This document shows, piece after piece, positions 2,576 through 17,975 of a stretch of DNA of 19,550 bases. The notes under the pieces are model-generated. The model was given only the letters and a program-made list of their open reading frames with translations, was not told the DNA's origin and made no database searches. Position numbers and translations under genes: made by a program. Origin of the DNA: a virus (lineage: Duplodnaviria > Heunggongvirae > Uroviricota > Caudoviricetes); the IMG/VR virus record IMGVR_UViG_2529292888_000015. One strand, 5' to 3'. Within the stretch, counting starts at the first letter, position 1. Each line of letters begins with the position of its first letter.

Positions 2576-3445
<870 letters not shown>

Positions 3446-5400: not shown

Positions 5401-5670
5401 TGGGCCAATCCTTGCTCATAACAGGCATTCACTTCAGTCATGGCAGAAAGGTATGCATGCTGGAGAAGTCGTGAAAGAAAAGAAGACTGCTGCGCCGTTT
5501 GTCGTCACGTTTATCTTCATTGGCTATGCAAGTCGTAATACAAGGTGGGACAAAACTGAGACACATAAGGCCTCGCAATGGCTTGCAAGGCTTTACATGT
5601 TTTGATGTGGTGGGACGTGTGAGCGCAGTGTTGATGGGGTAATGCTTTGAATTAGAAGCGGATTCTTATA

Positions 5671-5716
5671 ATTCGTAATGCGAAGGTCGTAGGTTCGACT
5701 CCTATTATCGGCACCA
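5671..5716 (+). other. 3' fragment (46 nt) of a tRNA-Thr(CGU) gene; left att site of the P4-like element
   Basis: attcgtaatgcgaaggtcgtaggttcgactcctattatcggcacca matches the anticodon loop to CCA end of enterobacterial tRNA-Thr (thrW-like), recalled from memory; the 5' half is missing. Integrase gene begins 163 bp downstream. Confidence 0.75.
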
Positions 5717-5878
5717 TCTCAACTTCCTCAAACGTCCGTATTAGTCCATAAAATCTCTGATTTATAACATTTTTTATTCTTTTAAGTCCATAGTAGTCCG
5801 TAACCATCCAGTAGAATCCGGTACTGAATGTGTATAGGATTGTGTATATGTTCCTGTTCGGTCTGGATTCCTATACAC

Positions 5879-7060
5879 ATGCCTTTAAACGATATGCAGA
5901 TTCGCCGCGCTAAGCCTGAAGCTAAAGCCTATACATTTGGAGATGGGCTAGGGTTGTCATTACTTATAGAACCTAATGGAAGCAAGAGTTGGCGGTTCCG
6001 CTATCGCTATGCCGGCAAACCCAAAATGATCTCGCTTGGTGTTTACCCAACGATCACCCTTGCCGATGCTCGTTCCCGTCGTGATGAAGCTCGAAAACTT
6101 GTGGCAGAAGGAAAGAACCCTAGTGAGGTTCGAAAAGAGCAAAAGCTAGCTATGCAAACAGAGTCAGAGAACGCCTTCGAAAAGATAGCCAGAGAGTGGC
6201 ATCAACTTAAATCTGCTAAATGGTCGGCGGGATATGCATCAGACATCATGGAAGCGTTTAAGAACGACATTTTTCCTTATGTCGGAACAAGGCCTGTGGG
6301 AGAGATTAAACCGCTAGAGCTGCTGAACGTTCTGCGTAAAATTGAGAAACGTGGTGCGTTGGAGAAAATGCGCAAAGTGCGGCAGCGTTGCTCCGAAGTG
6401 TTTCGCTACGCAATTGCAACGGGTAGGGCGGAGTACAATCCTGCGGCTGATCTCTCCAGCGCTCTCGAAGTACACCAATCCAATCATTTCCCATTCCTAA
6501 AAGCTGATGAGATACCTGATTTTCTACGTGCCTTAGAGGGTTACTCCGGGAGTAAGCTTGTCCAGATAGCCACGAAATTACTGATGATTACGGGTGTGAG
6601 AACCATCGAATTACGCGCGGCATTATGGCAAGAATTTGATCTGGATAACGCTATTTGGGAAATTCCTGCTGAAAGGATGAAAATGCGTAGGCCACATCTT
6701 GTGCCCTTATCATCTCAAGCGGTAGATTTACTCAATGAACTCAAGATCATGACAGGGAACTATCGTTATGTTTTTCCAGGGCGGAACGATCCGAATAGGC
6801 CAATGAGCGAAGCGAGTATAAATCAAGCCATTAAGCGTATTGGGTATGGAGGAAAAGTCACTGGACATGGTTTTCGTCATACCCTTTCTACAATCCTGCA
6901 TGAGCAAGGTTTTGAGAGTGCTTGGATTGAAATCCAGTTGGCTCATGTAGATAAAAATTCTATTAGGGGGACTTATAACCATGCTCAATATTTTAGTGGA
7001 AGGAAGTCTATGATGGACTGGTACAGTAATTTGATATTTGAAAGACTAAAAAGGAGTTAA
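5879..7060 (+). CDS. int: P4-type tyrosine integrase
   Basis: N-terminus MPLNDMQIRRAKPEAKAYTFGDGLGLSLLIEPNGSKSWRFRYRYAGK is the typical P4-integrase arm-binding start; catalytic HGFRHTLST (HxxR) and C-terminal RGTYNHAQY tyrosine. Start set at ATG 5879 rather than the track's 5828. Confidence 0.92.
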   Translation: MPLNDMQIRRAKPEAKAYTFGDGLGLSLLIEPNGSKSWRFRYRYAGKPKMISLGVYPTITLADARSRRDEARKLVAEGKNPSEVRKEQKLAMQTESENAFEKIAREWHQLKSAKWSAGYASDIMEAFKNDIFPYVGTRPVGEIKPLELLNVLRKIEKRGALEKMRKVRQRCSEVFRYAIATGRAEYNPAADLSSALEVHQSNHFPFLKADEIPDFLRALEGYSGSKLVQIATKLLMITGVRTIELRAALWQEFDLDNAIWEIPAERMKMRRPHLVPLSSQAVDLLNELKIMTGNYRYVFPGRNDPNRPMSEASINQAIKRIGYGGKVTGHGFRHTLSTILHEQGFESAWIEIQLAHVDKNSIRGTYNHAQYFSGRKSMMDWYSNLIFERLKRS

Positions 7061-7063
7061 TTT

Positions 7064-7480
7064 GTGTCTCAACCACTTTCGGAAATATTGACATGGGATG
7101 ATGAACAATGGGAGGTATTTGTCCATGATTGGCTTATTGTCTGTAAATCAGATGATTACCCGTGGAGCGAACGTTTGGGAGGAGCTGGAGATAAAGGTAG
7201 AGACGTTGTTGGATATAAATCGGATCCTAACGTAGAAGGTTATTCTTGGGATAATTATCAATGCAAACTGTACAAAAAAAGTTTAGGGTTCTCTGATGTT
7301 GTAGTTGAGTTTGGAAAACTTATCTATTTTACTCTGAATGGTGATTATCCCATCCCTCAGAAGTACTTTTTTGTGGCACCCTATGATTTATCTACTACAT
7401 TTTCTAATTTATTGAAAAATAAAAACGAGCTTAAAAAAGCAGTCCTTGATTCATGGGATTCAGCAATTTCAAAAAAATAA
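7064..7480 (+). CDS. Mrr-like PD-(D/E)xK restriction-endonuclease catalytic domain protein; probable N-terminal part of a frameshifted effector gene (LmuA-like)
   Basis: GTG start with AAAAAGGAG RBS overlapping the int stop. GDKGRDVVGY ... DNYQCKLYKK ... KYFFVAPYDLSTTF aligns with the Mrr_cat motif order (GDGGIDG ... VQAKR ... GVFITTSGFT). ORF ends at a TAA immediately after an A7 run. Confidence 0.6.
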   Translation: MSQPLSEILTWDDEQWEVFVHDWLIVCKSDDYPWSERLGGAGDKGRDVVGYKSDPNVEGYSWDNYQCKLYKKSLGFSDVVVEFGKLIYFTLNGDYPIPQKYFFVAPYDLSTTFSNLLKNKNELKKAVLDSWDSAISKK

Positions 7481-8070
7481 CTAAAAAGATTGATATTCCA
7501 TTAGATGATGAAATAAAAAAATATATTGAGGATTTTGATTTTAGTATTTTTTACTCTCTACCCTTATCATTGATTTTAAATGATATTGCAAATACACACC
7601 TTTATTTTAAGTACTTTAACGAGCTGTATGTCGTGAGAATCCCTCCAAATGAAATTCCAACATACAATTCAAAAAAAGAGTCTGTATATGTTAATGCACT
7701 GCTTCAAGCCTATTCAGAGCATGGAAATAAAACTTATAGTTCTTTCTTAGAGCTTGATGATCCATACAGACGACACTTTAATAATAGTAGAAATGATTTT
7801 TATTTTGCATCTTCGCTTGAGGTTTTTGTCCGCGAAGTATTTAAAGATGATGTATTCAAAGCATTGAAATGTTACATTTCATCTTCAATTGAACCCGTCT
7901 TTTATGAAGACCATAATTATGCATTTATTAGGTGTAATGCAGTCTTGAAGCAGGCTGTTCTGACACCAATTGCACATTCAGTACTATCAAAAATATGTGA
8001 AGCAAATGATAAAAAAGGAATATGCCATCATTTGGTTAATGATGGTGAAGTAATTTGGACGGTGAGATAA
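7453..8070 (+). CDS. Hypothetical protein; probable C-terminal part of the same effector gene, in a different frame
   Basis: Overlaps the previous ORF by 28 nt; one extra A in the 7471..7477 run would fuse the two into a ~335-aa protein. Stop overlaps the next start (TAATG at 8068..8072). Very AT-rich. Confidence 0.55.
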   Translation: MGFSNFKKITKKIDIPLDDEIKKYIEDFDFSIFYSLPLSLILNDIANTHLYFKYFNELYVVRIPPNEIPTYNSKKESVYVNALLQAYSEHGNKTYSSFLELDDPYRRHFNNSRNDFYFASSLEVFVREVFKDDVFKALKCYISSSIEPVFYEDHNYAFIRCNAVLKQAVLTPIAHSVLSKICEANDKKGICHHLVNDGEVIWTVR

Positions 8071-8528
8071 TGGTTAGAATTTATAATTCAAGTTTAGAAG
8101 TGGCATGTCGAATGGCGAAAGTGCTCGTCGCTATTTATCCTTCTTCATTAAGCCTTGAACGGCTTATTTGTTTTGATTTTATTTTAGTAAATCTTAAGGA
8201 TTTTTTACCTGAAGAGATTAGTCTTCATCCTCCAATACCCCGTAGAGATGCTCAGTTAGCCCTAAAACGAGAGATTGTTTTAGAATCATTGGCTTTGTTG
8301 CAAGGCTATGAACTAGCCTCAAAAATTTATACACATCGTGGTTTTGTATATAAAGCTTCTGAAAAAACATATGCATTTACAAATTCTCTACATAATGAAT
8401 ATGTTGCGCAGATGGAGCATAATATAAATTTGGTGGTTAAGTTATATAGTGATATTCCTGATGAGCAGTTGCAATCAATTATAAAAAATAAAATTGGCAA
8501 ATATGATATGGAATTTAATTATGAATGA
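8070..8528 (+). CDS. Small predicted alpha-helical protein (~152 aa), middle gene of the cargo operon (LmuC/DdmB-like position)
   Basis: ATG at 8070 coupled to the upstream stop; stop TGA at 8526..8528 overlaps the downstream ATG at 8521 (ATGAATGA). No recognisable catalytic motif. Confidence 0.6.
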   Translation: MVRIYNSSLEVACRMAKVLVAIYPSSLSLERLICFDFILVNLKDFLPEEISLHPPIPRRDAQLALKREIVLESLALLQGYELASKIYTHRGFVYKASEKTYAFTNSLHNEYVAQMEHNINLVVKLYSDIPDEQLQSIIKNKIGKYDMEFNYE

Positions 8529-9153
8529 CAATTTTTTTACGTTCAGAAAAATAAAGGTAACCGGATTCAATAAATTAGATGCTATAATTGAATTTGGTTC
8601 TAAATTGACTATTTTATATGGTGGTTCTGACTCTGGAAAAACATACATATATTATTTGATTCGATATTTATTAGGGAGTGAAAAACTAAAAAATAAAGAT
8701 ATCGATCATGCTCAAGGTTATGATTTAGCCTATCTGGAATTTAATTTTCAAGGTAGGGTAATGACAATTGAGAGGTCTCTTCAGGATAGCGCCCATTACA
8801 GATTATATGATTCGAGCATTGAAAATGTTAGTGAAGCTAATCTGTTGATGGTTTTTTCCAAAAGTGCTTCGTCTAAAAAGAGTTTTTCATCATACTTTTA
8901 TGGTAGGTTGAATTTCAAAGAGGCTAAAGTAAGAACAAACTTAAGTAATACTCTTCATAAATTTAATCTTAATAATGTTTTTGAATTTTTTTGTATTGAT
9001 GAATTAAGAGTGTTAACTGAGAAGTCGTTAATTCTTTCTGATATTCCTAGCGAGGAGACAAAAAGAAAGTCTGAATTTAAATTCCTTTTAACTCAGAGAG
9101 ATGATACTAACTCCTTAGCAGAAAAACCAAATAAAAAAGCAAGATATTTTTAA
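8521..9153 (+). CDS. SMC/Rad50/RecF-like ABC ATPase, N-terminal head with Walker A; apparently terminated by an in-frame TAA
   Basis: FRKIKVTGFNKLDAIIEFGSKLTILYGGSDSGKTYIYYLIRYLLG is the SMC_N/AAA_23-type N-terminal strand plus Walker A (GGSDSGKT). The next ORF is in the same frame, separated only by TAA 9151..9153. Confidence 0.65.
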   Translation: MNDNFFTFRKIKVTGFNKLDAIIEFGSKLTILYGGSDSGKTYIYYLIRYLLGSEKLKNKDIDHAQGYDLAYLEFNFQGRVMTIERSLQDSAHYRLYDSSIENVSEANLLMVFSKSASSKKSFSSYFYGRLNFKEAKVRTNLSNTLHKFNLNNVFEFFCIDELRVLTEKSLILSDIPSEETKRKSEFKFLLTQRDDTNSLAEKPNKKARYF

Positions 9154-9183
9154 AAAAATCAAATTGCAAATATTTATGAGGAA

Positions 9184-9774
9184 TTGAAAGCGCAATTAAT
9201 TTATCCTGAATATGATCAAGTCATTGTTTCAAGAGAACTTGAGAAAGTAGAGCAAGATATTGAATCATCGAAAGATATATTGAAAGGTATTGTTGATGCA
9301 CTTGATGATAAGAAGCAATTATTAAAAGAGTTAAGTGATGAATTATATTCAATCAGTGACAGGGAAAAATACTTATCATTACTCATTGAAAGATTTAGTC
9401 TTCTTAAAGACCAATACTTTATAGATCTACAAAGAATAGATGTTGTATCACAGGCGAATTTCTATTTAAATAATTTTGCAGATATTTATTGTGAGTTCTG
9501 TAATACACCGCAAAAAAAAGAAAATGAAATATCATATGATGATTGTTTTTTGTCGTGTAATGCAGAAAAATTGAAAATCAAAAGCCAGCTGAAAGGATTA
9601 ATTGAATCAATCGGATCTAATGTTCGCGAACATGAATTAATTATGTTAAGAAAAAATGATGTTAATGAAATTTATCAATCAGAAAAAAGTGATTTTAAGA
9701 CGTTAGAAGATAAAAATATAAAACAATACATTCATCTCTTGAATCACTTTATGAATATAAAGACAATCTTTTAA
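9184..9774 (+). CDS. Coiled-coil segment with a central CxxC (CEFC), probable middle part of the same SMC-like ATPase
   Basis: Charged heptad-like sequence (ELEKVEQDIESSKDILKGIVDALDDKKQLLKELSDEL...); no in-frame ATG start (track uses TTG at 9184); same frame as 8521..9153. Confidence 0.5.
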   Translation: MKAQLIYPEYDQVIVSRELEKVEQDIESSKDILKGIVDALDDKKQLLKELSDELYSISDREKYLSLLIERFSLLKDQYFIDLQRIDVVSQANFYLNNFADIYCEFCNTPQKKENEISYDDCFLSCNAEKLKIKSQLKGLIESIGSNVREHELIMLRKNDVNEIYQSEKSDFKTLEDKNIKQYIHLLNHFMNIKTIF

Positions 9775-10340
9775 TGGATCACACAAAACATAGCATTCTA
9801 TCTTCATTACAAGATAAAGAAGATGATGTTGACGAACTTAAATACTCCGCCGAGGACTTTGACTCCTTAACAGTAGCTGATTTGTATGATATAGAAATAG
9901 CGATGCAAGACTTTTTGAATGATATAAATTTTGAAAATTCTAAAGATAACAAAGTGCGATTTGACGAAGATACATATGACTTTAATATCAATGGGAAACG
10001 CCGAGGAATGTTTGGTAAAGGTACCCGTGCAGTAATGCATGCTATATTTACCATTTGCTTTGCGGAATTTTTATCAAGAAAAGGGAATCCATTCATTGGA
10101 TTTGTTGTGCTTGATAGTCCATTAGTGACGCACTTTGATAAAGATAGAGGGGGTTCTCTATCGGATGTTAATAGCGTCAGTCTCAGTGATTCATTTTATC
10201 ACGCATTAATCAAAAGGGACTATAATTTCCAGATTGTAATTCTTGAGAATAAAGGTCCGACGTTCCAAATAAAAATTAATGATGCAAATAAAATCCATAA
10301 CTTAAATAAGAATGGAAGCTCTGGTTTTTATCCTGTTTAA
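9774..10340 (+). CDS. C-terminal head of an SMC-like ABC ATPase (signature-like and Walker B-like motifs, both non-canonical)
   Basis: GMFGKGTRAVMHAIFTICFAEFL ... FIGFVVLDSPL ... FQIVILEN occupy the positions of the signature, Walker B and H-loop of SMC-type heads but are degenerate (DS instead of DE). Start overlaps the upstream stop (TAATG); one extra A in the runs at 9712..9723 would fuse it to the preceding ORF. Confidence 0.55.
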   Translation: MDHTKHSILSSLQDKEDDVDELKYSAEDFDSLTVADLYDIEIAMQDFLNDINFENSKDNKVRFDEDTYDFNINGKRRGMFGKGTRAVMHAIFTICFAEFLSRKGNPFIGFVVLDSPLVTHFDKDRGGSLSDVNSVSLSDSFYHALIKRDYNFQIVILENKGPTFQIKINDANKIHNLNKNGSSGFYPV

Positions 10341-10370
10341 TACATTAAAAATATAACTGCTAATTGGGGT

Positions 10371-10396
10371 GCTCGAAATTATATTTCGTTTCGAGC
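10371..10396 (+). terminator. Hairpin downstream of the cargo operon (possible terminator, no clear U-tract)
   Basis: gctcgaaa (10371..10378) pairs with tttcgagc (10389..10396), beginning 31 bp after the stop at 10340. Confidence 0.3.
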
Positions 10397-10749
10397 GCTC
10401 AGTTCATTTCTAAATAATTTGCAAAATTATTTTGGGTACTTTCGCCTCTACACTTCCTTCGGGTGGTTCCACAATAATGGATCTCACCGGCGTTTGATAT
10501 TTTATAATCTAACCCCTTAGCGCGCGCAGCCCCCCACGCCTGCTCGCTTCGCTTAACAGACTGGTTTTCATGCATTCCGCAAATCGTCTCAGAAGCCACC
10601 ACACAAGGGCTTTCGCGTCAAAAATGGTGCATGAGAATCATGCGTTTTCATGCGCTATAGACATGCACTCATGCGCTCTCAGGCCAGCCAGGGAAAAGGC
10701 GTAAAAAATCCCAGTACTGGACCGGGATTACGTGGGCTTTTTTTGCTAA

Positions 10750-11022
10750 TCAGACAGGAATTTGCTGACGGCTTGACAGCTTTGACGCGGAGCCATAGCG
10801 ATTGAGAGTTTGCTGTTGTTTTTCCGGCATTTGTGCTTTCTCTGATTCCTGTTCATTGCGCCGGGGCTTCATGATTATCGTATCCACACTTTCCAGTGCG
10901 GTAAATGTGTAGGAACATTCAAGATTCTGGCACTGATACCATGAGCGTTTAACCGATGGTGCTTCATAGGCGGAGGTTCTGGCGTGTGCCGTCGTACCGC
11001 ATTCGGGACATTTAAGTGCCAT
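10750..11022 (-). CDS. Ogr/Delta-family zinc-finger late-gene transcriptional activator
   Basis: MALKCPECGTTAHARTSAYEAPSVKRSWYQCQNLECSYTFTALESV follows the Ogr pattern C..C..AHARTS...QC.N..CS.TF..ESV; GGAG RBS inside the end of the upstream gene. Confidence 0.85.
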   Translation of the reverse strand: MALKCPECGTTAHARTSAYEAPSVKRSWYQCQNLECSYTFTALESVDTIIMKPRRNEQESEKAQMPEKQQQTLNRYGSASKLSSRQQIPV

Positions 11023-11027
11023 TAATA

Positions 11028-11579
11028 TTACTCCTGCATGCCGTTAATGTAATCCAGACGTTGCTGAAAGCGCAGTTGTTGTGCAGGGGTGTAAGAGCTC
11101 TGGCAATCACGAACCATCATGGGGTCAGGCATCACACCGGATTCATCCAGAATCATACGATAATCCCCGGCAATTTCAGGCGGTGTTATTGCCAGCTGGC
11201 GAACCAGAGCATTGCGTAATATACGGGACGCAACGTCAACCCCTCCGCGCCCCTTCAGGAACGGAGCCAGTGCAGATGTCAGGGCTGCTCCATTCGCCTG
11301 CATAAAATTGCTGAGAGCGTCTTCTGTGCAGGCCTCCATCAGTTGATGCTGCGAGTAAATGCATTCGCGCGCAGCACAGTTAATTTGCCATTTCAGCACA
11401 TCCAGATGTTCCCGCTGTAATTCGAGCTGTCGAGCATAATCTGCTGGTTTTTCCATGGCAGTGAGGAGTGATTCTATCTGTTGTTCAACGGCTTTTCGGC
11501 TCTCACTATGTCCAGCCCACAGAATACGGGCATTTCTAAAACTGATAAGCGCTTGGTCTGGAGTGACTCGGGCCATCAT
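11028..11579 (-). CDS. psu: P4 Psu-like protein (polarity suppression / capsid decoration), assignment tentative
   Basis: 183 aa, close to P4 Psu size; sits in the late operon directly upstream of the Ogr/Delta gene and is coupled to the preceding gene (ATGA overlap at 11576..11579). Similarity to Psu is from imperfect memory. Confidence 0.5.
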   Translation of the reverse strand: MMARVTPDQALISFRNARILWAGHSESRKAVEQQIESLLTAMEKPADYARQLELQREHLDVLKWQINCAARECIYSQHQLMEACTEDALSNFMQANGAALTSALAPFLKGRGGVDVASRILRNALVRQLAITPPEIAGDYRMILDESGVMPDPMMVRDCQSSYTPAQQLRFQQRLDYINGMQE

Positions 11580-12328
11580 ACTGCTTTCTCCTTCTCAGCA
11601 CGTTCCTGACGAACCTTCATTTTATGCATAGCTGCTGGAGAGAGTTTATTACTGAAATCCAGACGGGCCGCATAATCCGGGGCAACTCCCGCCAGTTTAA
11701 ACACGGGGTCCTGTTCGGGCATCGCATCGTTAGTCAGAGCCGGTCTGGTGATATGTTTATGAATAAAATCTTTCAGCAGTGTGTCCGGGTCATTAACTGA
11801 ATGCACCACACCGACAACTGCGCTGGCTTCCCTGCCCATTGTTGATTTGAGCAGGCTTAGTGTCTGGATTAGTGCTTTTCCATGCGACTGCATAAAATCT
11901 TCCCAGATTTGTTTTGCGCGAATACCCACAAGGGTGTCGTGCGCGTGGATATACTTTCCGGCTAATTCCGCAGCCTCCTGCGGCAAAAGTGCATTTTCGC
12001 TTTCCTGAGCCGCCAGCAGCTCATCAAAATCCTCAAGCGTTTCTCGTCCCAGCGCAATTTCCGTGCGCAGTTTTTTCATTTCCTTTGAGACTACGCCCTG
12101 ACTTTCACGAAATAGCGTGCGCCACTCCTCATTCAGGGCGTTCGTCGTGGCTTCCATTTCAGCGCGGCGCTGGCGGATTGTCGCAATATTATCCGCTGCC
12201 GCTTTTTGCTGACGACGTGCTTCAAGCCATGCAGATTTGGTGGCATTCACTTTCTCAAGCGCCTGTTGCGTCGAAACAGGGATAGAAATTTCAACGATCG
12301 GGTTATTGTTCTGTTCTGGGATTGTCAT
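11576..12328 (-). CDS. First gene of the P4-like late operon; Sid-like (capsid size determination) by size and position
   Basis: 250-aa predicted helical protein, first gene of the leftward operon, divergent from the alpA/primase operon. No motif-level confirmation. Confidence 0.4.
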   Translation of the reverse strand: MTIPEQNNNPIVEISIPVSTQQALEKVNATKSAWLEARRQQKAAADNIATIRQRRAEMEATTNALNEEWRTLFRESQGVVSKEMKKLRTEIALGRETLEDFDELLAAQESENALLPQEAAELAGKYIHAHDTLVGIRAKQIWEDFMQSHGKALIQTLSLLKSTMGREASAVVGVVHSVNDPDTLLKDFIHKHITRPALTNDAMPEQDPVFKLAGVAPDYAARLDFSNKLSPAAMHKMKVRQERAEKEKAV

Positions 12329-13261: not shown

Positions 13262-13522
13262 ATGCGTAATATTTCTGTGTCTGCGCCAGCTCCTGCTGCG
13301 CCATTATTTCCTGTATCGAACCATCATGAGCGATTTTTACGCCTGCCTGAGGTGATGCACTTATGCGGGTTGTCCCGTTCGACCGTTTACGACCTGATCA
13401 GCCGCGATGCGTTTCCGAAGCAGATCCCGCTTGGCGGTAAAAATGTCGCCTGGGCACAGTCTGAGGTCAGCGCATGGATGGCGGACCGCATCAGCGCCCG
13501 TGGGCGGGGATGTGATGCATGA
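13262..13522 (+). CDS. alpA: AlpA / Vis-family phage transcriptional regulator (MerR-like HTH, excisionase-like)
   Basis: [50 protein letters not shown] is the AlpA signature; the true start may be downstream of the annotated ATG. Confidence 0.8.
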
Positions 13523-13881
13523 TGATACCTGCATACATTAAATACCTTTATTCTGGCTTGCTTACTGTCGTCATTTCCAGGTATAGTTTTTCCGCTGTCG
13601 CAAAATCGGCAGCCGGAATTGGCGTTCCGTATAACTTATTGGCGACAATTGACGCCCCTTGCGTCTTTTTTTACGTCGTAGCTCAGGCACAACCATTTTC
13701 AGGGCTGTGGTGTTTATGCTTACACCATGGTTCTATCGAGATAATGGTAGTCCGGGCGGGGCAGCCTTCGGGCTGGCCGGTTTCCAATAAGGCCGGTTAC
13801 GCCAACCCCGTTCGGGCTGCCACCAGTGAAATTGGCGTTTCCGGTGGTAGCAATAACCGCTACTTATTGGAGGCTGCCATC

Positions 13882-14076
13882 ATGGCTACAATCCTCACCC
13901 CGTCACACCCGCAATATGTCTTTGTGTTTGCCGCAATCCGCCGTGCTGACACTCACCCCCGCATCTGTATGCTTCGCACTGTCTCCTGCGATGAGCATTC
14001 CGCGCGCCGTTTGCTAGTCCGAGATTATGTACTCTCCCTTTCTGCACGGCTGCCTGCCGGGGAGGTGACGCTATGA
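13882..14076 (+). CDS. Small hypothetical protein (64 aa), first of three translationally coupled small ORFs upstream of the primase
   Basis: ATG at 13882 with GGAGG 8 nt upstream; stop overlaps the next ATG (ATGA at 14073..14076). The track's longer 13519 start gives an implausible N-terminal extension. Confidence 0.4.
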
Positions 14077-17018: not shown

Positions 17019-17975
17019 TTATTTTTGAATTGATTTAAACATCCCATCGAGTTGTAATTTATTTATGTCGGTTTTCTTTATGGCTTTAATTAAGTTTTCA
17101 ATAACTTCCAAAGAAAAAATTACATCTTTCTTTTCAATTCTAACCCCCCCGTGGTGGCTGCAAGCATTAAGGATGTCCTTTGTAATTTCAACATCATTTT
17201 TCATTAATGGTTCATAGTCCAGAGCCTCAATAACAGAAACTAAACTACCTAGCATTTGCTCTTGGTATTGAACGTTGTTTAAATGCATTATACGAATATT
17301 AACAAGCATGAGAATATATTCTAAATATCTCCTGGCAGTATTTCCTTTCTCTTGTAAAGAATCACGATCATATTCCTCAATACTCATGACTTCATTATGT
17401 AAAGAGGCTATTTTGTGCTCTGCTAATGAAATATTTATCGCATCCATGAGGTTTCGTGAGAAGCCTGTAGATGTAACATGACCATTTGCGGGCCTTGTTA
17501 AAATACATGTAGTATAGCAATTTATATTTGGGGTCTGGATTGTCTCATTTACTCTTTTAACCGTTCTATAAACGTCTACCATATAAGAACCTGAGTTTTC
17601 AAATGAACATGAAGAGCATTTTGTATTATATATTCTATTTAGAGATAACTGATTGTGATAGTATCCCTTTAAGAAAGCATATATAGTGTCATTAAACTCG
17701 ACAAACACAACGGACTCAATATATATATGGAATTTATCATTGGGGTGCCACTCTAATTCAAGTCTTCTTGTAGAGTCATCAAAGGAAAAGTTTGAAATAA
17801 AATCCCAGTTACCTAAATCTATAAAATCAACGATATTTCTACCTGCACCATGGATATTTTTATTTATTAAAGTTGTGATTGAGTTTTTTATAATGTCCCA
17901 ATCATGAATTTCATGATCGAATTTATTATTGATGGTTTCTTTTATTTGATTGGAAAAGTTTGAATAACTAGTCAC
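17019..17975 (-). CDS. Hypothetical protein (318 aa), AT-rich cargo gene between primase and attR; function unknown
   Basis: Long uninterrupted ORF in a very AT-rich block flanked by AT-rich non-coding DNA (16920..17018 and 17976..18505); no motif recognisable by eye. Confidence 0.6.
   Translation of the reverse strand: MTSYSNFSNQIKETINNKFDHEIHDWDIIKNSITTLINKNIHGAGRNIVDFIDLGNWDFISNFSFDDSTRRLELEWHPNDKFHIYIESVVFVEFNDTIYAFLKGYYHNQLSLNRIYNTKCSSCSFENSGSYMVDVYRTVKRVNETIQTPNINCYTTCILTRPANGHVTSTGFSRNLMDAINISLAEHKIASLHNEVMSIEEYDRDSLQEKGNTARRYLEYILMLVNIRIMHLNNVQYQEQMLGSLVSVIEALDYEPLMKNDVEITKDILNACSHHGGVRIEKKDVIFSLEVIENLIKAIKKTDINKLQLDGMFKSIQK

What the first reader, a model, noticed from the sequence alone, without database searches (positions are those of the whole stretch)
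8521..10340. SMC-like ATPase has a central CxxC and non-canonical C-terminal head motifs
Taken as one ~600-aa protein, the ATPase has a canonical Walker A but the C-terminal head shows FGKGTR where LSGGQ/E is expected, VVLDS where the Walker B DE is expected, and QIVILEN where the H-loop histidine is expected. The coiled-coil segment has a single CEFC near its midpoint (around 9490..9505), positioned like the Rad50/SbcC zinc hook at the coiled-coil apex. This suggests an ATP-binding but hydrolysis-impaired SMC-like sensor with a metal-mediated dimerisation hook, a combination I cannot match to a described family from memory.
Basis: inference. Interest (0 to 1): 0.45.

Follow-up and report, generated by a model that had tools for sequence, protein, structure and literature searches.

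The report
Broken Lamassu LmuB defence ATPase gene
The odd SMC-like ATPase is LmuB, the known zinc-hook DNA sensor of the Lamassu anti-phage system, sitting in a P4-like satellite of E. coli O157:H7. Here it and its nuclease partner are inactivated by a stop codon and frameshifts, so the finding is real but already explained.

Summary
Window 8521-10340 holds three collinear pieces of one 606-aa LmuB. LmuB is the Rad50/SMC-like ATPase of a short, type II (ABC-3C) Lamassu-Mrr system with gene order LmuA-LmuC-LmuB. The system lies in the int-psu hotspot of a P4-like satellite of E. coli O157:H7.

- Walker A: GGSDSGKT.
- CEFC at 9490-9501, in the apex loop of the coiled coil.
- FGKGTR, VVLDS and QIVILEN.

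None of these is local decay. In 150 diverged representatives of the clade the CxxC, GKGxR, D-S-P and Q-x4-E/D-N are 96-100% conserved. A Glu replaces the Q-loop Gln in 148 of 150. The literature already describes the LmuB zinc hook and the deviant Walker B hhhhD[Q/S/T/E].

- LmuB carries TTA->TAA at codon 211.
- LmuB has a 1-nt deletion in an A-run at 9712-9716.
- LmuA has a 1-nt deletion at 7473/7474.

Intact 335/152/606-aa operons exist in Proteus and in a Pantoea-like P4 satellite. Both frameshifts are shared by the O55:H7 and O157 alleles compared. Later lesions are lineage-specific.

The published "Lamassu-var" was cloned from the O55:H7 allele of this decayed locus.

The family is known and overall interest is low. 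The rewired ATPase site of the clade is a modest open question.

The parts
5828..7060 (+). Tyrosine integrase of the P4-like satellite; left border of the defence hotspot
   Evidence: Pfam Arm-DNA-bind_3, Phage_int_M and Phage_integrase. RefSeq annotates it as a tyrosine recombinase.
7064..7480 (+). LmuA fragment 1: Mrr-like PD-(D/E)xK nuclease effector domain (D43...QCK68), cut off by a frameshift
   Evidence: PADLOC LmuA PDLC03852, model positions 10-140, E = 9e-41. Weak Pfam Mrr_cat match. Intact homologs are 335 aa.
7471..7477 (+). LmuA lesion: 1-nt deletion between 7473 and 7474, which fuses two A-runs into A7
   Evidence: DNA alignment with the intact Proteus and Pantoea-like operons. 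Shared by all four E. coli alleles compared.
7453..8070 (+). LmuA fragment 2: C-terminal docking domain (CTD6 of ABC-3C systems)
   Evidence: Pfam CTD6, E = 8e-30. PADLOC LmuA model positions 141-333, E = 4e-44.
8070..8528 (+). LmuC (ABC-3C middle component 2); apparently intact at 152 aa
   Evidence: Pfam MC2, E = 6e-30. PADLOC LmuC PDLC03871, E = 2.5e-36. RefSeq annotation.
8521..9153 (+). LmuB fragment 1: N-terminal half of the ATPase head. Walker A at 8620-8643. Glu161 (9001-9003) sits at the Q-loop position.
   Evidence: PADLOC LmuB PDLC03863, model positions 3-199, E = 8e-50. Pfam AAA_23. Alignments A1/A2. E161 aligns with the Gln of FQPQN in Salmonella LmuB.
9151..9153 (+). LmuB lesion 1: nonsense codon TAA, from ancestral TTA (Leu211); the changed base is 9152
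   Evidence: DNA alignment. The TTA allele survives in O55:H7 strains and in O157 strain 493/89.
9154..9711 (+). LmuB coiled-coil arm with the hook (listed ORF 9184-9774). Includes the conserved RFxLLxxxYxxDLxR motif (aa 291-305) before the hook.
   Evidence: PADLOC LmuB model positions 231-412, E = 1.6e-21. The AF2 model of this fragment is a helical hairpin.
9490..9501 (+). CEFC zinc-hook motif (C324, C327) in the apex loop
   Evidence: Both cysteines invariant in 150/150 representatives; clade consensus CPxCG. Aligns with CPMCG of Salmonella LmuB 9hqu. Apex position in the models.
9712..9716 (+). LmuB lesion 2: 1-nt deletion in an A-run (A6 in the closest intact homolog to A5). This is the real frameshift; the reading frame continues in the frame of ORF 9774-10340.
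   Evidence: DNA alignment. No E. coli complete genome carries the repaired allele; the best match is 103/104.
9774..10340 (+). LmuB fragment 3: end of the descending helix plus the C-terminal half of the head. Signature FGKGTR at 10011-10028, Walker B VVLDSP at 10104-10121, H-loop QIVILEN at 10230-10250.
   Evidence: PADLOC LmuB model positions 428-608, E = 5e-37. Weak Pfam DUF3732 match. HMM alignments to solved LmuBs. Motif conservation counts.
10750..12328 (-). ogr/delta, psu and sid of the P4-like satellite; right border of the hotspot
   Evidence: RefSeq annotation of the identical locus. Same arrangement around the intact homolog in locus L005.

Best explanation
The region is the remnant of lmuB. 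LmuB is the Rad50/SMC-like sensor ATPase of a short, three-gene Lamassu system: LmuA with an Mrr-type nuclease and CTD6, LmuC of the MC2 type, and LmuB. The system is carried as cargo in the int-psu defence hotspot of a P4-like satellite in E. coli O157:H7.

How intact relatives most likely work is inferred from solved Lamassu complexes. Two LmuB chains join at the CxxC zinc hook. LmuC and one LmuA monomer are held on the hook-proximal coiled coil. The ATP-bound heads sense DNA ends of an invader. LmuA is then released, oligomerises and cuts DNA, which aborts the infection.

The unusual head motifs are the conserved signature of this LmuB clade, not local decay. They are GKGxR in place of LSGGQ, D-S-P in place of D-E, Q-x4-E-N in place of the H-loop His, and Glu in place of the Q-loop Gln.

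In this window the system is non-functional. LmuB has a nonsense codon at residue 211 and a 1-nt deletion near residue 398. LmuA has a 1-nt deletion between its nuclease domain and its docking domain. The decay was stepwise. The two frameshifts predate the O55:H7/O157:H7 split. The stop codon arose on the branch leading to typical O157:H7.
For: Family assignment:
- The three ORFs match PADLOC LmuB model PDLC03863 collinearly (positions 3-199, 231-412, 428-608). LmuA and LmuC models hit the upstream ORFs.
- Pfam finds MC2 and CTD6. RefSeq annotates 'ABC-three component system' proteins.
- A profile of the family hits solved LmuB 9hqu at E = 2e-19, aligning CxxC with CPMCG, GKG with GSG and DSP with DQP.
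- Foldseek top hits for the model are LmuB chains 9uxh, 9hqu, 9nyg and 9ux7, followed by Rad50 and SMC.

Pseudogene status:
- Intact 606-aa homologs share 85-88% and 73-76% identity. They lie in operons of 335, 152 and 606 aa, one of them in the same P4 hotspot.
- DNA alignment shows exactly three lesions.
- The lesions are not sequencing errors. The A-run deletion is in all 308 genomes that have the locus.
- TTA persists in O55:H7 strains and in O157 strain 493/89.
- The O55:H7 alleles carry a further deletion at 9688.
- Some strains have an IS1203 insertion or a partial deletion.
- Point differences among E. coli alleles are 6 nonsynonymous to 1 synonymous.

Motif conservation. Apex position of the CxxC.

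Mechanism and known motif deviations come from bioRxiv 10.1101/2025.03.14.643221, PMC12663957, 10.1101/2025.06.23.660979 and PMC10586767.
Against: - No solved structure or biochemistry exists for this particular clade (MC2/CTD6, D-S Walker B). The mechanism is transferred from LmuBs that are about 14% identical.
- The O55:H7 allele, which also carries frameshifts, gave a slight plaque-size reduction of T-even phages when cloned (PMC11754643). Some residual activity therefore cannot be excluded.
- The LmuA deletion created A_AAA_AAA followed by UAA, a potential -1 slippery site that could restore a little full-length LmuA (sequence reading).
- All E. coli copies are at least 99% identical, so selection on them cannot be measured well.
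Confidence: 0.9

Rival explanations
1. The fragments are still used. Either the pieces are translated separately and reassemble into a working split LmuB and split LmuA, or recoding restores some full-length protein. Recoding would mean stop-codon readthrough plus ribosomal or transcriptional slippage on the A-runs. The locus would then remain a weak defence system.
For: - ORF3 starts with an ATG that overlaps the stop of ORF2 (TAATG).
- ABC heads are naturally built from N- and C-terminal halves.
- The LmuA lesion forms an A_AAA_AAA heptamer in the right frame for a -1 shift into the CTD6 frame.
- The cloned O55:H7 allele reduced T-even plaque size slightly (PMC11754643).
- The locus is retained in about 308 genomes.
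Against: - Three independent rescue events would be needed.
- The ATG at 9774 is an ancestral internal Met codon, present in the intact homologs, not a new start.
- The LmuB deletion leaves only an A5 run with no slippery heptamer.
- ORF2 has no ATG start.
- Different sublineages add further lesions: the 9688 deletion, the 9152 stop, IS1203 and a partial deletion.
- Substitutions are 6:1 nonsynonymous to synonymous.
- Retention is explained by clonality, since all copies are at least 99% identical.
- The published clone starts at the annotated lmuA start codon without a promoter, and its phenotype was marginal (PMC11754643).
Confidence: 0.07
2. It is a previously undescribed SMC-like sensor family. 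On this view it is distinct from Lamassu, Rad50/SbcC and RecN.
For: - Pfam gives only weak generic hits to the ATPase pieces: AAA_23, and DUF3732 below its cut-off.
- NCBIfam has no model for it.
- Identity to solved LmuBs is only about 14%.
Against: - Strong, collinear PADLOC LmuB matches.
- Canonical LmuA-LmuC-LmuB operon with MC2 and CTD6.
- The family profile finds solved LmuBs.
- The best fold matches are LmuBs.
- The Walker B D-S variant and the CxxC are listed for short Lamassu in PMC12663957.
- The same locus has already been published as a Lamassu variant (PMC11754643).
Confidence: 0.02
3. It is a degenerate SbcC/Rad50-type DNA-repair protein rather than a defence component.
For: It has a CxxC hook and an SMC-like head. 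Rad50 structures appear among the fold matches.
Against: - No Mre11/SbcD-type nuclease gene lies next to it.
- The coiled coil is short (about 230 aa) and the Walker B Glu is absent.
- It sits in a satellite defence hotspot with LmuA and LmuC.
Confidence: 0.01

Closest known systems
Short type II Lamassu, Mrr subtype (Lamassu-Mrr; ABC-3C system with MC2 and CTD6). An E. coli SE15 Lamassu-Mrr was validated by Millman et al. 2022 (bioRxiv 10.1101/2022.05.11.491447).
   Same: - Three-gene order LmuA (Mrr-like nuclease plus CTD), LmuC, LmuB.
- LmuB of about 600 aa with one CxxC hook and Walker B of the form hhhhD[Q/S/T/E].
- Location in a mobile-element defence hotspot.
   Different: - Here lmuA and lmuB are pseudogenes.
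- Sequence relatedness to the tested SE15 system was not measured. No E. coli copy other than the clone at 99% identity or above was found at DNA level.
'Lamassu-var' of Johnson et al. 2024 (Domainator, PMC11754643), cloned from CP038295 4116517-4120474
   Same: It is the same locus in E. coli O55:H7 TB182A. Gene order and satellite are identical, and only a handful of nucleotide differences separate it from the window.
   Different: - The authors present it as an abundant new Lamassu variant of 3-9 CDSs.
- The comparison here shows the extra CDSs are fragments made by frameshifts: one in lmuA and two in lmuB in that allele.
- The abundance reflects the O55/O157 clone.
- The window allele lacks the 9688 deletion and has the additional stop codon at 9151-9153.
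Salmonella enterica LmuACB (PDB 9hqu/9hqx) and Vibrio cholerae DdmABC/LmuACB (9ny5, 9nyg, 9uxh)
   Same: - LmuB fold.
- Salmonella LmuB has a CPxCG hook at the equivalent position.
- The Walker B Glu is missing.
- The LmuA nuclease has its catalytic Lys at residue 68 in both Salmonella LmuA (K68A mutant) and the window's LmuA.
   Different: - Those LmuBs are DUF3732-type with GSGSN or GSGAN signature, D-Q-P Walker B, an H-loop His (visible for V. cholerae LmuB in the alignments) and a Q-loop Gln (seen in the Salmonella alignment).
- This clade has GKGxR, D-S-P, Asn and Glu at those positions.
- V. cholerae LmuB has no hook.
- LmuA (tested) has no sequence match among solved structures; LmuC was not searched (one search failed on coordinates).
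Rad50 / SbcC
   Same: ABC head split by an antiparallel coiled coil, with a CxxC zinc hook at its apex. Both are DNA-end sensors coupled to a nuclease.
   Different: - Much shorter arm.
- No Mre11/SbcD partner.
- No LSGGQ, D-E or H-loop His.
- The nuclease is released rather than stably bound, according to the published Lamassu models.

Membership tests
Lamassu LmuB (SMC-like ATPase of ABC-3C systems) | Sequence match to LmuB profiles over the whole length | tested here: met
   PADLOC PDLC03863 matches collinearly at model positions 3-199, 231-412 and 428-608 of 610, with E = 8e-50, 2e-21 and 5e-37. The family profile hits solved LmuB 9hqu at E = 2e-19.
Lamassu LmuB (SMC-like ATPase of ABC-3C systems) | ABC head split by an antiparallel coiled coil; fold closest to solved LmuB | tested here: met
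   AF2 model with pLDDT 85.6 and helices 233-318 and 339-439. Foldseek top hits are 9uxh_F, 9hqu_A, 9nyg_B and 9ux7_A.
Lamassu LmuB (SMC-like ATPase of ABC-3C systems) | Intact Walker A with a deviant Walker B (hhhhD[Q/S/T/E] in short Lamassu, PMC12663957) | tested here: met
   GGSDSGKT and VVLDSP are present. D532 is in 150/150 and S533 in 144/150 representatives.
Lamassu LmuB (SMC-like ATPase of ABC-3C systems) | CxxC zinc hook at the arm apex (present in many but not all LmuBs) | tested here: met
   CEFC at 9490-9501, invariant across the clade, and in the apex loop of the models. Zinc binding itself cannot be tested here.
Lamassu system (type II / ABC-3C) | Operon with LmuA (effector plus CTD) and LmuC (middle component) next to LmuB | tested here: met
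   Pfam CTD6 and MC2. PADLOC LmuA and LmuC. Same order in the intact loci L003 and L005.
Lamassu system (type II / ABC-3C) | Complete open reading frames for all three components | tested here: not met
   lmuA has a 1-nt deletion at 7473/7474. lmuB has TAA at 9151-9153 and a 1-nt deletion at 9712-9716. The locus is a Lamassu remnant, not a working system.
Lamassu system (type II / ABC-3C) | Anti-phage activity that depends on LmuB ATP binding and on the LmuA effector | not testable with these tools
   The only published result is a marginal plaque-size effect of the frameshifted O55:H7 allele (PMC11754643).
Rad50 / SbcC | Canonical LSGGQ signature, Walker B D-E and H-loop His | tested here: not met
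   The corresponding positions read FGKGTR, VVLDS and QIVILEN, and the replacing residues are conserved across the clade.
Rad50 / SbcC | Adjacent Mre11/SbcD phosphoesterase gene | tested here: not met
   The neighbours are LmuC, LmuA, the integrase and ogr/delta.
P4-like satellite defence hotspot cargo | Location between the integrase and psu of a P4-like element that has sid, delta, alpA and an alpha primase | tested here: met
   RefSeq annotation and Pfam. C4 antisense RNA and isrK lie in the immunity region. The intact homolog sits in the same slot in L005.

The most novel reading that the evidence does not exclude
The large LmuB clade to which this gene belonged may have a rewired, still functional nucleotide site rather than a dead one. 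The clade has at least 150 representatives at or below 50% mutual identity, and 1299 profile hits at E <= 1e-30.

Four features define the rewiring:
- The Walker B catalytic Glu is replaced by Ser.
- The H-loop His is replaced by Asn.
- The Q-loop Gln is replaced by an almost invariant Glu (E161).
- The signature loop carries an invariant Lys and Arg (GKGxR) instead of the Ser.

On this reading the Q-loop Glu would act as the relocated catalytic base. The signature Lys and Arg would contact the gamma-phosphate of the partner head in trans, like an arginine finger. That would give an ATP switch with different kinetics from the D-Q LmuBs studied so far.
Probability: 0.2. Interest if true: 0.5.

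Novelty: already known. Interest (0 to 1): 0.25.

Why it matters
The finding resolves to a known defence family, so it does not reveal a new system. It has three practical consequences.

1. The most abundant "Lamassu variant" reported in E. coli P4-like hotspots is a frameshifted remnant fixed in the O55:H7/O157:H7 clone (PMC11754643). That explains its odd gene count and its marginal phenotype. Defence-system censuses that count it as a system overcount.

2. It is a clear counter-example to the recent conclusion that defence pseudogenes are rare in P4 hotspots (PMC13586616). Here a dead system has been kept through the whole O55-to-O157 radiation, with stepwise decay that could serve as lineage markers.

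3. The clade-wide motif set is not discussed in the Lamassu papers I could read. It comprises a Q-loop Glu, a GKGxR signature, a D-S Walker B and an H-loop Asn. It offers defined mutants for asking whether ATP hydrolysis, or only ATP-driven head engagement, is needed for Lamassu activation.

Tried and rejected
- A 90-nt repaired query across the stop codon found nothing, because BLAST masks the A/T-rich stretch. A 240-nt query worked.
I modelled the 88%-identical intact homolog instead, and the window's own ORF2 fragment.
- The founding ABC-3C paper (Krishnan et al. 2020, NAR, PMC7544218) is not held. What it says about the signature and H-loop of this clade could not be checked.
- A C-terminal-only profile against PDB at E <= 10 hit only LmuBs, not Rad50 or SMC. 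The register of the signature motif relative to LSGGQ therefore stays ambiguous by one residue. HMMER puts K500 on the signature Ser (S536 of Salmonella LmuB) but needs a 1-residue gap before the conserved His. The ungapped register puts G499 on the Ser.
- LmuA has no sequence match among solved structures. The LmuC PDB query failed because I gave wrong coordinates, and I did not repeat it.
- A distant blastn of lmuB against E. coli genomes found only the clone at 99% identity or above. The relation to the validated SE15 Lamassu-Mrr could not be established.
- Sequencing error was considered and rejected, because the lesions recur in hundreds of independent complete genomes.
- Programmed recoding was considered and judged unlikely, because it would need three events and no slippery site exists at the lmuB deletion.
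Full report
**Observation**

On the + strand, 8494/8521-9153, 9184-9774 and 9774-10340 are three consecutive ORFs. The first two are in the same frame and are separated by a single TAA at 9151-9153. The third is shifted by one base.

- Walker A GGSDSGKT at 8620-8643.
- CEFC at 9490-9501.
- FGKGTR at 10011-10028.
- VVLDSP at 10104-10121.
- QIVILEN at 10230-10250.

**Context**

The window matches E. coli O157:H7 chromosomes at 99-100% identity. About 309 of 5426 complete genomes have the locus, EDL933 among them.

The finding lies in a low-GC island (28-35% against about 50% around it). The island sits between a tyrosine integrase (5828-7060) and ogr/delta, psu and sid (10750-12328, minus strand). 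Further along are alpA, an Icd-like gene, a DUF5375 gene and an alpha-type primase. C4 antisense RNA and isrK are also present. This is the int-psu defence hotspot of a P4-like satellite.

**Identity**

PADLOC's LmuB model PDLC03863 (610 positions) matches the three ORFs collinearly. The matched positions are 3-199, 231-412 and 428-608, with E = 8e-50, 2e-21 and 5e-37.

The upstream ORFs match as follows:
- ORF 8055/8070-8528 matches LmuC (E = 2.5e-36).
- ORFs 7064-7480 and 7453-8070 match positions 10-140 and 141-333 of one 336-position LmuA model.
- Pfam independently calls MC2 and CTD6 of ABC-3C systems, and RefSeq annotates them likewise.

A profile of the family finds the solved Salmonella LmuB (9hqu) at E = 2e-19. 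An AlphaFold2 model of the closest intact homolog (pLDDT 85.6) has solved LmuB chains as its best Foldseek matches, ahead of Rad50 and SMC.

The protein is therefore LmuB of a short type II Lamassu. Its effector is Mrr-like, with a D...QCK motif whose Lys is at residue 68.

**Pseudogene status**

Full-length 606-aa homologs exist in Proteus mirabilis (85-88% identity) and Pantoea alhagi (73-76%). Their operons encode LmuA of 335 aa, LmuC of 152 aa and LmuB of 606 aa. The Pantoea-type copy sits in the same int-...-ogr-psu-sid slot of a P4-like satellite.

Nucleotide alignment of the operons shows exactly three disabling differences in the window:
- A 1-nt deletion between 7473 and 7474 in lmuA.
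- TTA to TAA at base 9152 in lmuB codon 211.
- A 1-nt deletion in the A-run at 9712-9716 in lmuB.

The true frameshift is thus about 60 nt upstream of the ORF2/ORF3 junction. The last 19 residues of ORF2 are out of frame. The ATG at 9774 is an ancestral internal Met codon.

The lesions are not sequencing errors:
- A query carrying the repaired A-run has no perfect match in any E. coli complete genome; all 308 show the deletion.
- A query carrying TTA matches perfectly in O55:H7 strains and in O157 strain 493/89.

A four-allele comparison with outgroups gives the order of events:
- Both frameshifts are shared by all four alleles.
- The two O55:H7 alleles compared carry an extra deletion at 9688.
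- The stop codon is found only in the window (typical O157:H7) allele.

Some strains add an IS1203 insertion or a partial deletion. Point differences among the alleles are six nonsynonymous to one synonymous. All of this fits stepwise neutral decay after an old inactivation.

**Motifs in the family**

A profile search of 1.84 billion representatives returns 4383 hits, 1299 of them at E <= 1e-30. Conservation in the 150 best, which are at most 50% identical to each other, is as follows:

| Position | Residue | Count (of 150) |
|---|---|---|
| Hook | C324, C327 | 150, 150 |
| Signature | G499 / K500 / G501 / R503 | 150 / 146 / 150 / 148 |
| Walker B | D532 / S533 / P534 | 150 / 144 / 149 |
| H-loop | Q571 / N577 | 150 / 150 |
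| Q-loop position | E161 | 148 |

The hook consensus is CPxCG. S533 is Thr in the other six sequences.

HMM alignments to solved LmuBs give these correspondences:
- The CxxC aligns with CPMCG of Salmonella LmuB.
- GKG aligns with GSG of GSGSN or GSGAN.
- DSP aligns with DQP.
- E-N aligns with D-H.
- E161 aligns with the second Gln of FQPQN in Salmonella LmuB.

The secondary-structure order in the model fits the ABC head topology. It runs signature loop, helix 500-520, strand 528-532 ending in Asp, then strand 571-576 followed by Asn.

One caveat applies. HMMER places K500 on the signature Ser (S536 of Salmonella LmuB, whose S536R mutant kills defence). That alignment needs a one-residue gap before a conserved His. 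The ungapped register puts G499 on the Ser. Either way there is no Ser, and a conserved Lys and Arg sit in the signature loop.

**Hook position**

In the model of the intact homolog, the CxxC lies in loop 319-338 between helices 233-318 and 339-439. In a model of the window's own ORF2 fragment it lies in loop 99-117 between helices 12-98 and 118-195.

**Comparison with the literature**

- LmuB is described as a Rad50 relative, with many homologs carrying a zinc hook (CPxCG or similar) and a Walker B lacking the Glu (PMC10586767).
- A survey of 3829 systems gives hhhhD[Q/S/T/E] for short Lamassu and zero, one or two CxxC copies (PMC12663957).
- The hook, ATP binding and head engagement are needed for defence by Salmonella LmuACB. 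That complex hydrolyses about 1 ATP per minute with DNA (bioRxiv 10.1101/2025.03.14.643221).
- V. cholerae and Bacillus LmuBs also hydrolyse ATP (10.1101/2025.06.23.660979).
- A Lamassu-Mrr from E. coli SE15 is a validated abortive-infection system (10.1101/2022.05.11.491447).

Impairment is unproven for this clade. I found no discussion of the signature, H-loop or Q-loop substitutions in the papers held. The founding ABC-3C paper could not be read.

**A link I did not expect**

The 'Lamassu-var' reported as the most frequent cargo of P4-like hotspots in E. coli was cloned from CP038295 4116517-4120474 (PMC11754643). It was described as 259 instances with 3-9 CDSs and a Psu about 31% identical to that of P4.

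That interval is this same locus in O55:H7 TB182A. In that allele lmuA is split in two and lmuB is split by two deletions. The cloned interval begins at the annotated lmuA start codon.

The reported phenotype was only a smaller plaque size for T-even phages at high dilution. The 'variant' architecture is therefore a product of pseudogenisation. Its abundance reflects the over-sampled O55/O157 clone. It also stands against the general finding that recognisable defence pseudogenes are rare in P4 hotspots (PMC13586616).

**Verdict**

The feature is a known family member, LmuB of Lamassu, and in this genome it is a pseudogene. The remaining open point is whether the clade's conserved substitutions amount to a rewired active site rather than a dead one.

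Noticed in passing
window 7064-8070 (lesion at 7471-7477): lmuA, the Mrr-like nuclease effector, is also split by a 1-nt deletion. The deletion creates an A7 run read as A_AAA_AAA followed by UAA, a potential -1 slippery site into the CTD6 frame. This might allow a trace of full-length LmuA.
   Followed up: partly
locus L008 (NZ_CP038295.1 4115500-4121500); window 7064-11022: The published, experimentally tested 'Lamassu-var' (PMC11754643) is the O55:H7 allele of this same decayed locus. It has one lmuA frameshift and two lmuB frameshifts, and was cloned from the lmuA start codon.
   Followed up: yes
window 2576-3400 (-): A LEM-3-like GIY-YIG protein matches the single-gene defence system PD-T4-3 almost end to end (PADLOC E = 2e-140). 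It lies next to a pin invertase and tail-fibre assembly genes of a prophage remnant.
   Followed up: partly
window 13594-13671 and 13740-13827 (+): isrK Hfq-binding RNA and C4 antisense RNA (Rfam, 72 and 84 bits) lie inside the listed ORF 13519-14076 (Icd-like). This is the P4-type immunity region of the satellite.
   Followed up: no
window 17019-17975 (-): A 318-aa ORF sits in a second low-GC patch (29-33% GC) just downstream of the primase gene. It has no Pfam or PADLOC match and may be further accessory cargo of the satellite.
   Followed up: partly
window 5600-5830: No tRNA gene is detected in the window. In strain 493/89 a tRNA-Thr lies directly upstream of the same integrase. Here an IS-type integrase fragment, an AraC regulator and prophage genes precede it, so the satellite's left junction has been rearranged in this lineage.
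   Followed up: no
hits H1-H3, H31 and H42 (E. coli O157:H7 genomes): Some O157:H7 strains carry an IS1203 insertion inside the Lamassu remnant. One strain retains only the last 17% of lmuB. These are further, independent decay events.
   Followed up: no
protein P0027 (344 aa, Logan assembly): This predicted protein combines an MC2 (LmuC) domain with a segment 96% identical to part of the window's LmuB, covering 36% of it. It suggests yet another frame change that fuses lmuC to lmuB in some isolate.
   Followed up: no
LmuB aa 291-305 and 349-352 (window about 9391-9435 and 9565-9576): An invariant motif R-F-x-L-L-x3-Y-x2-D-L-x-R precedes the hook, and E349/K352 follow it. Both lie on the hook-proximal coiled coil. 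In Salmonella LmuACB that region binds LmuC and the LmuA C-terminal domain, so this is a likely docking surface.
   Followed up: no
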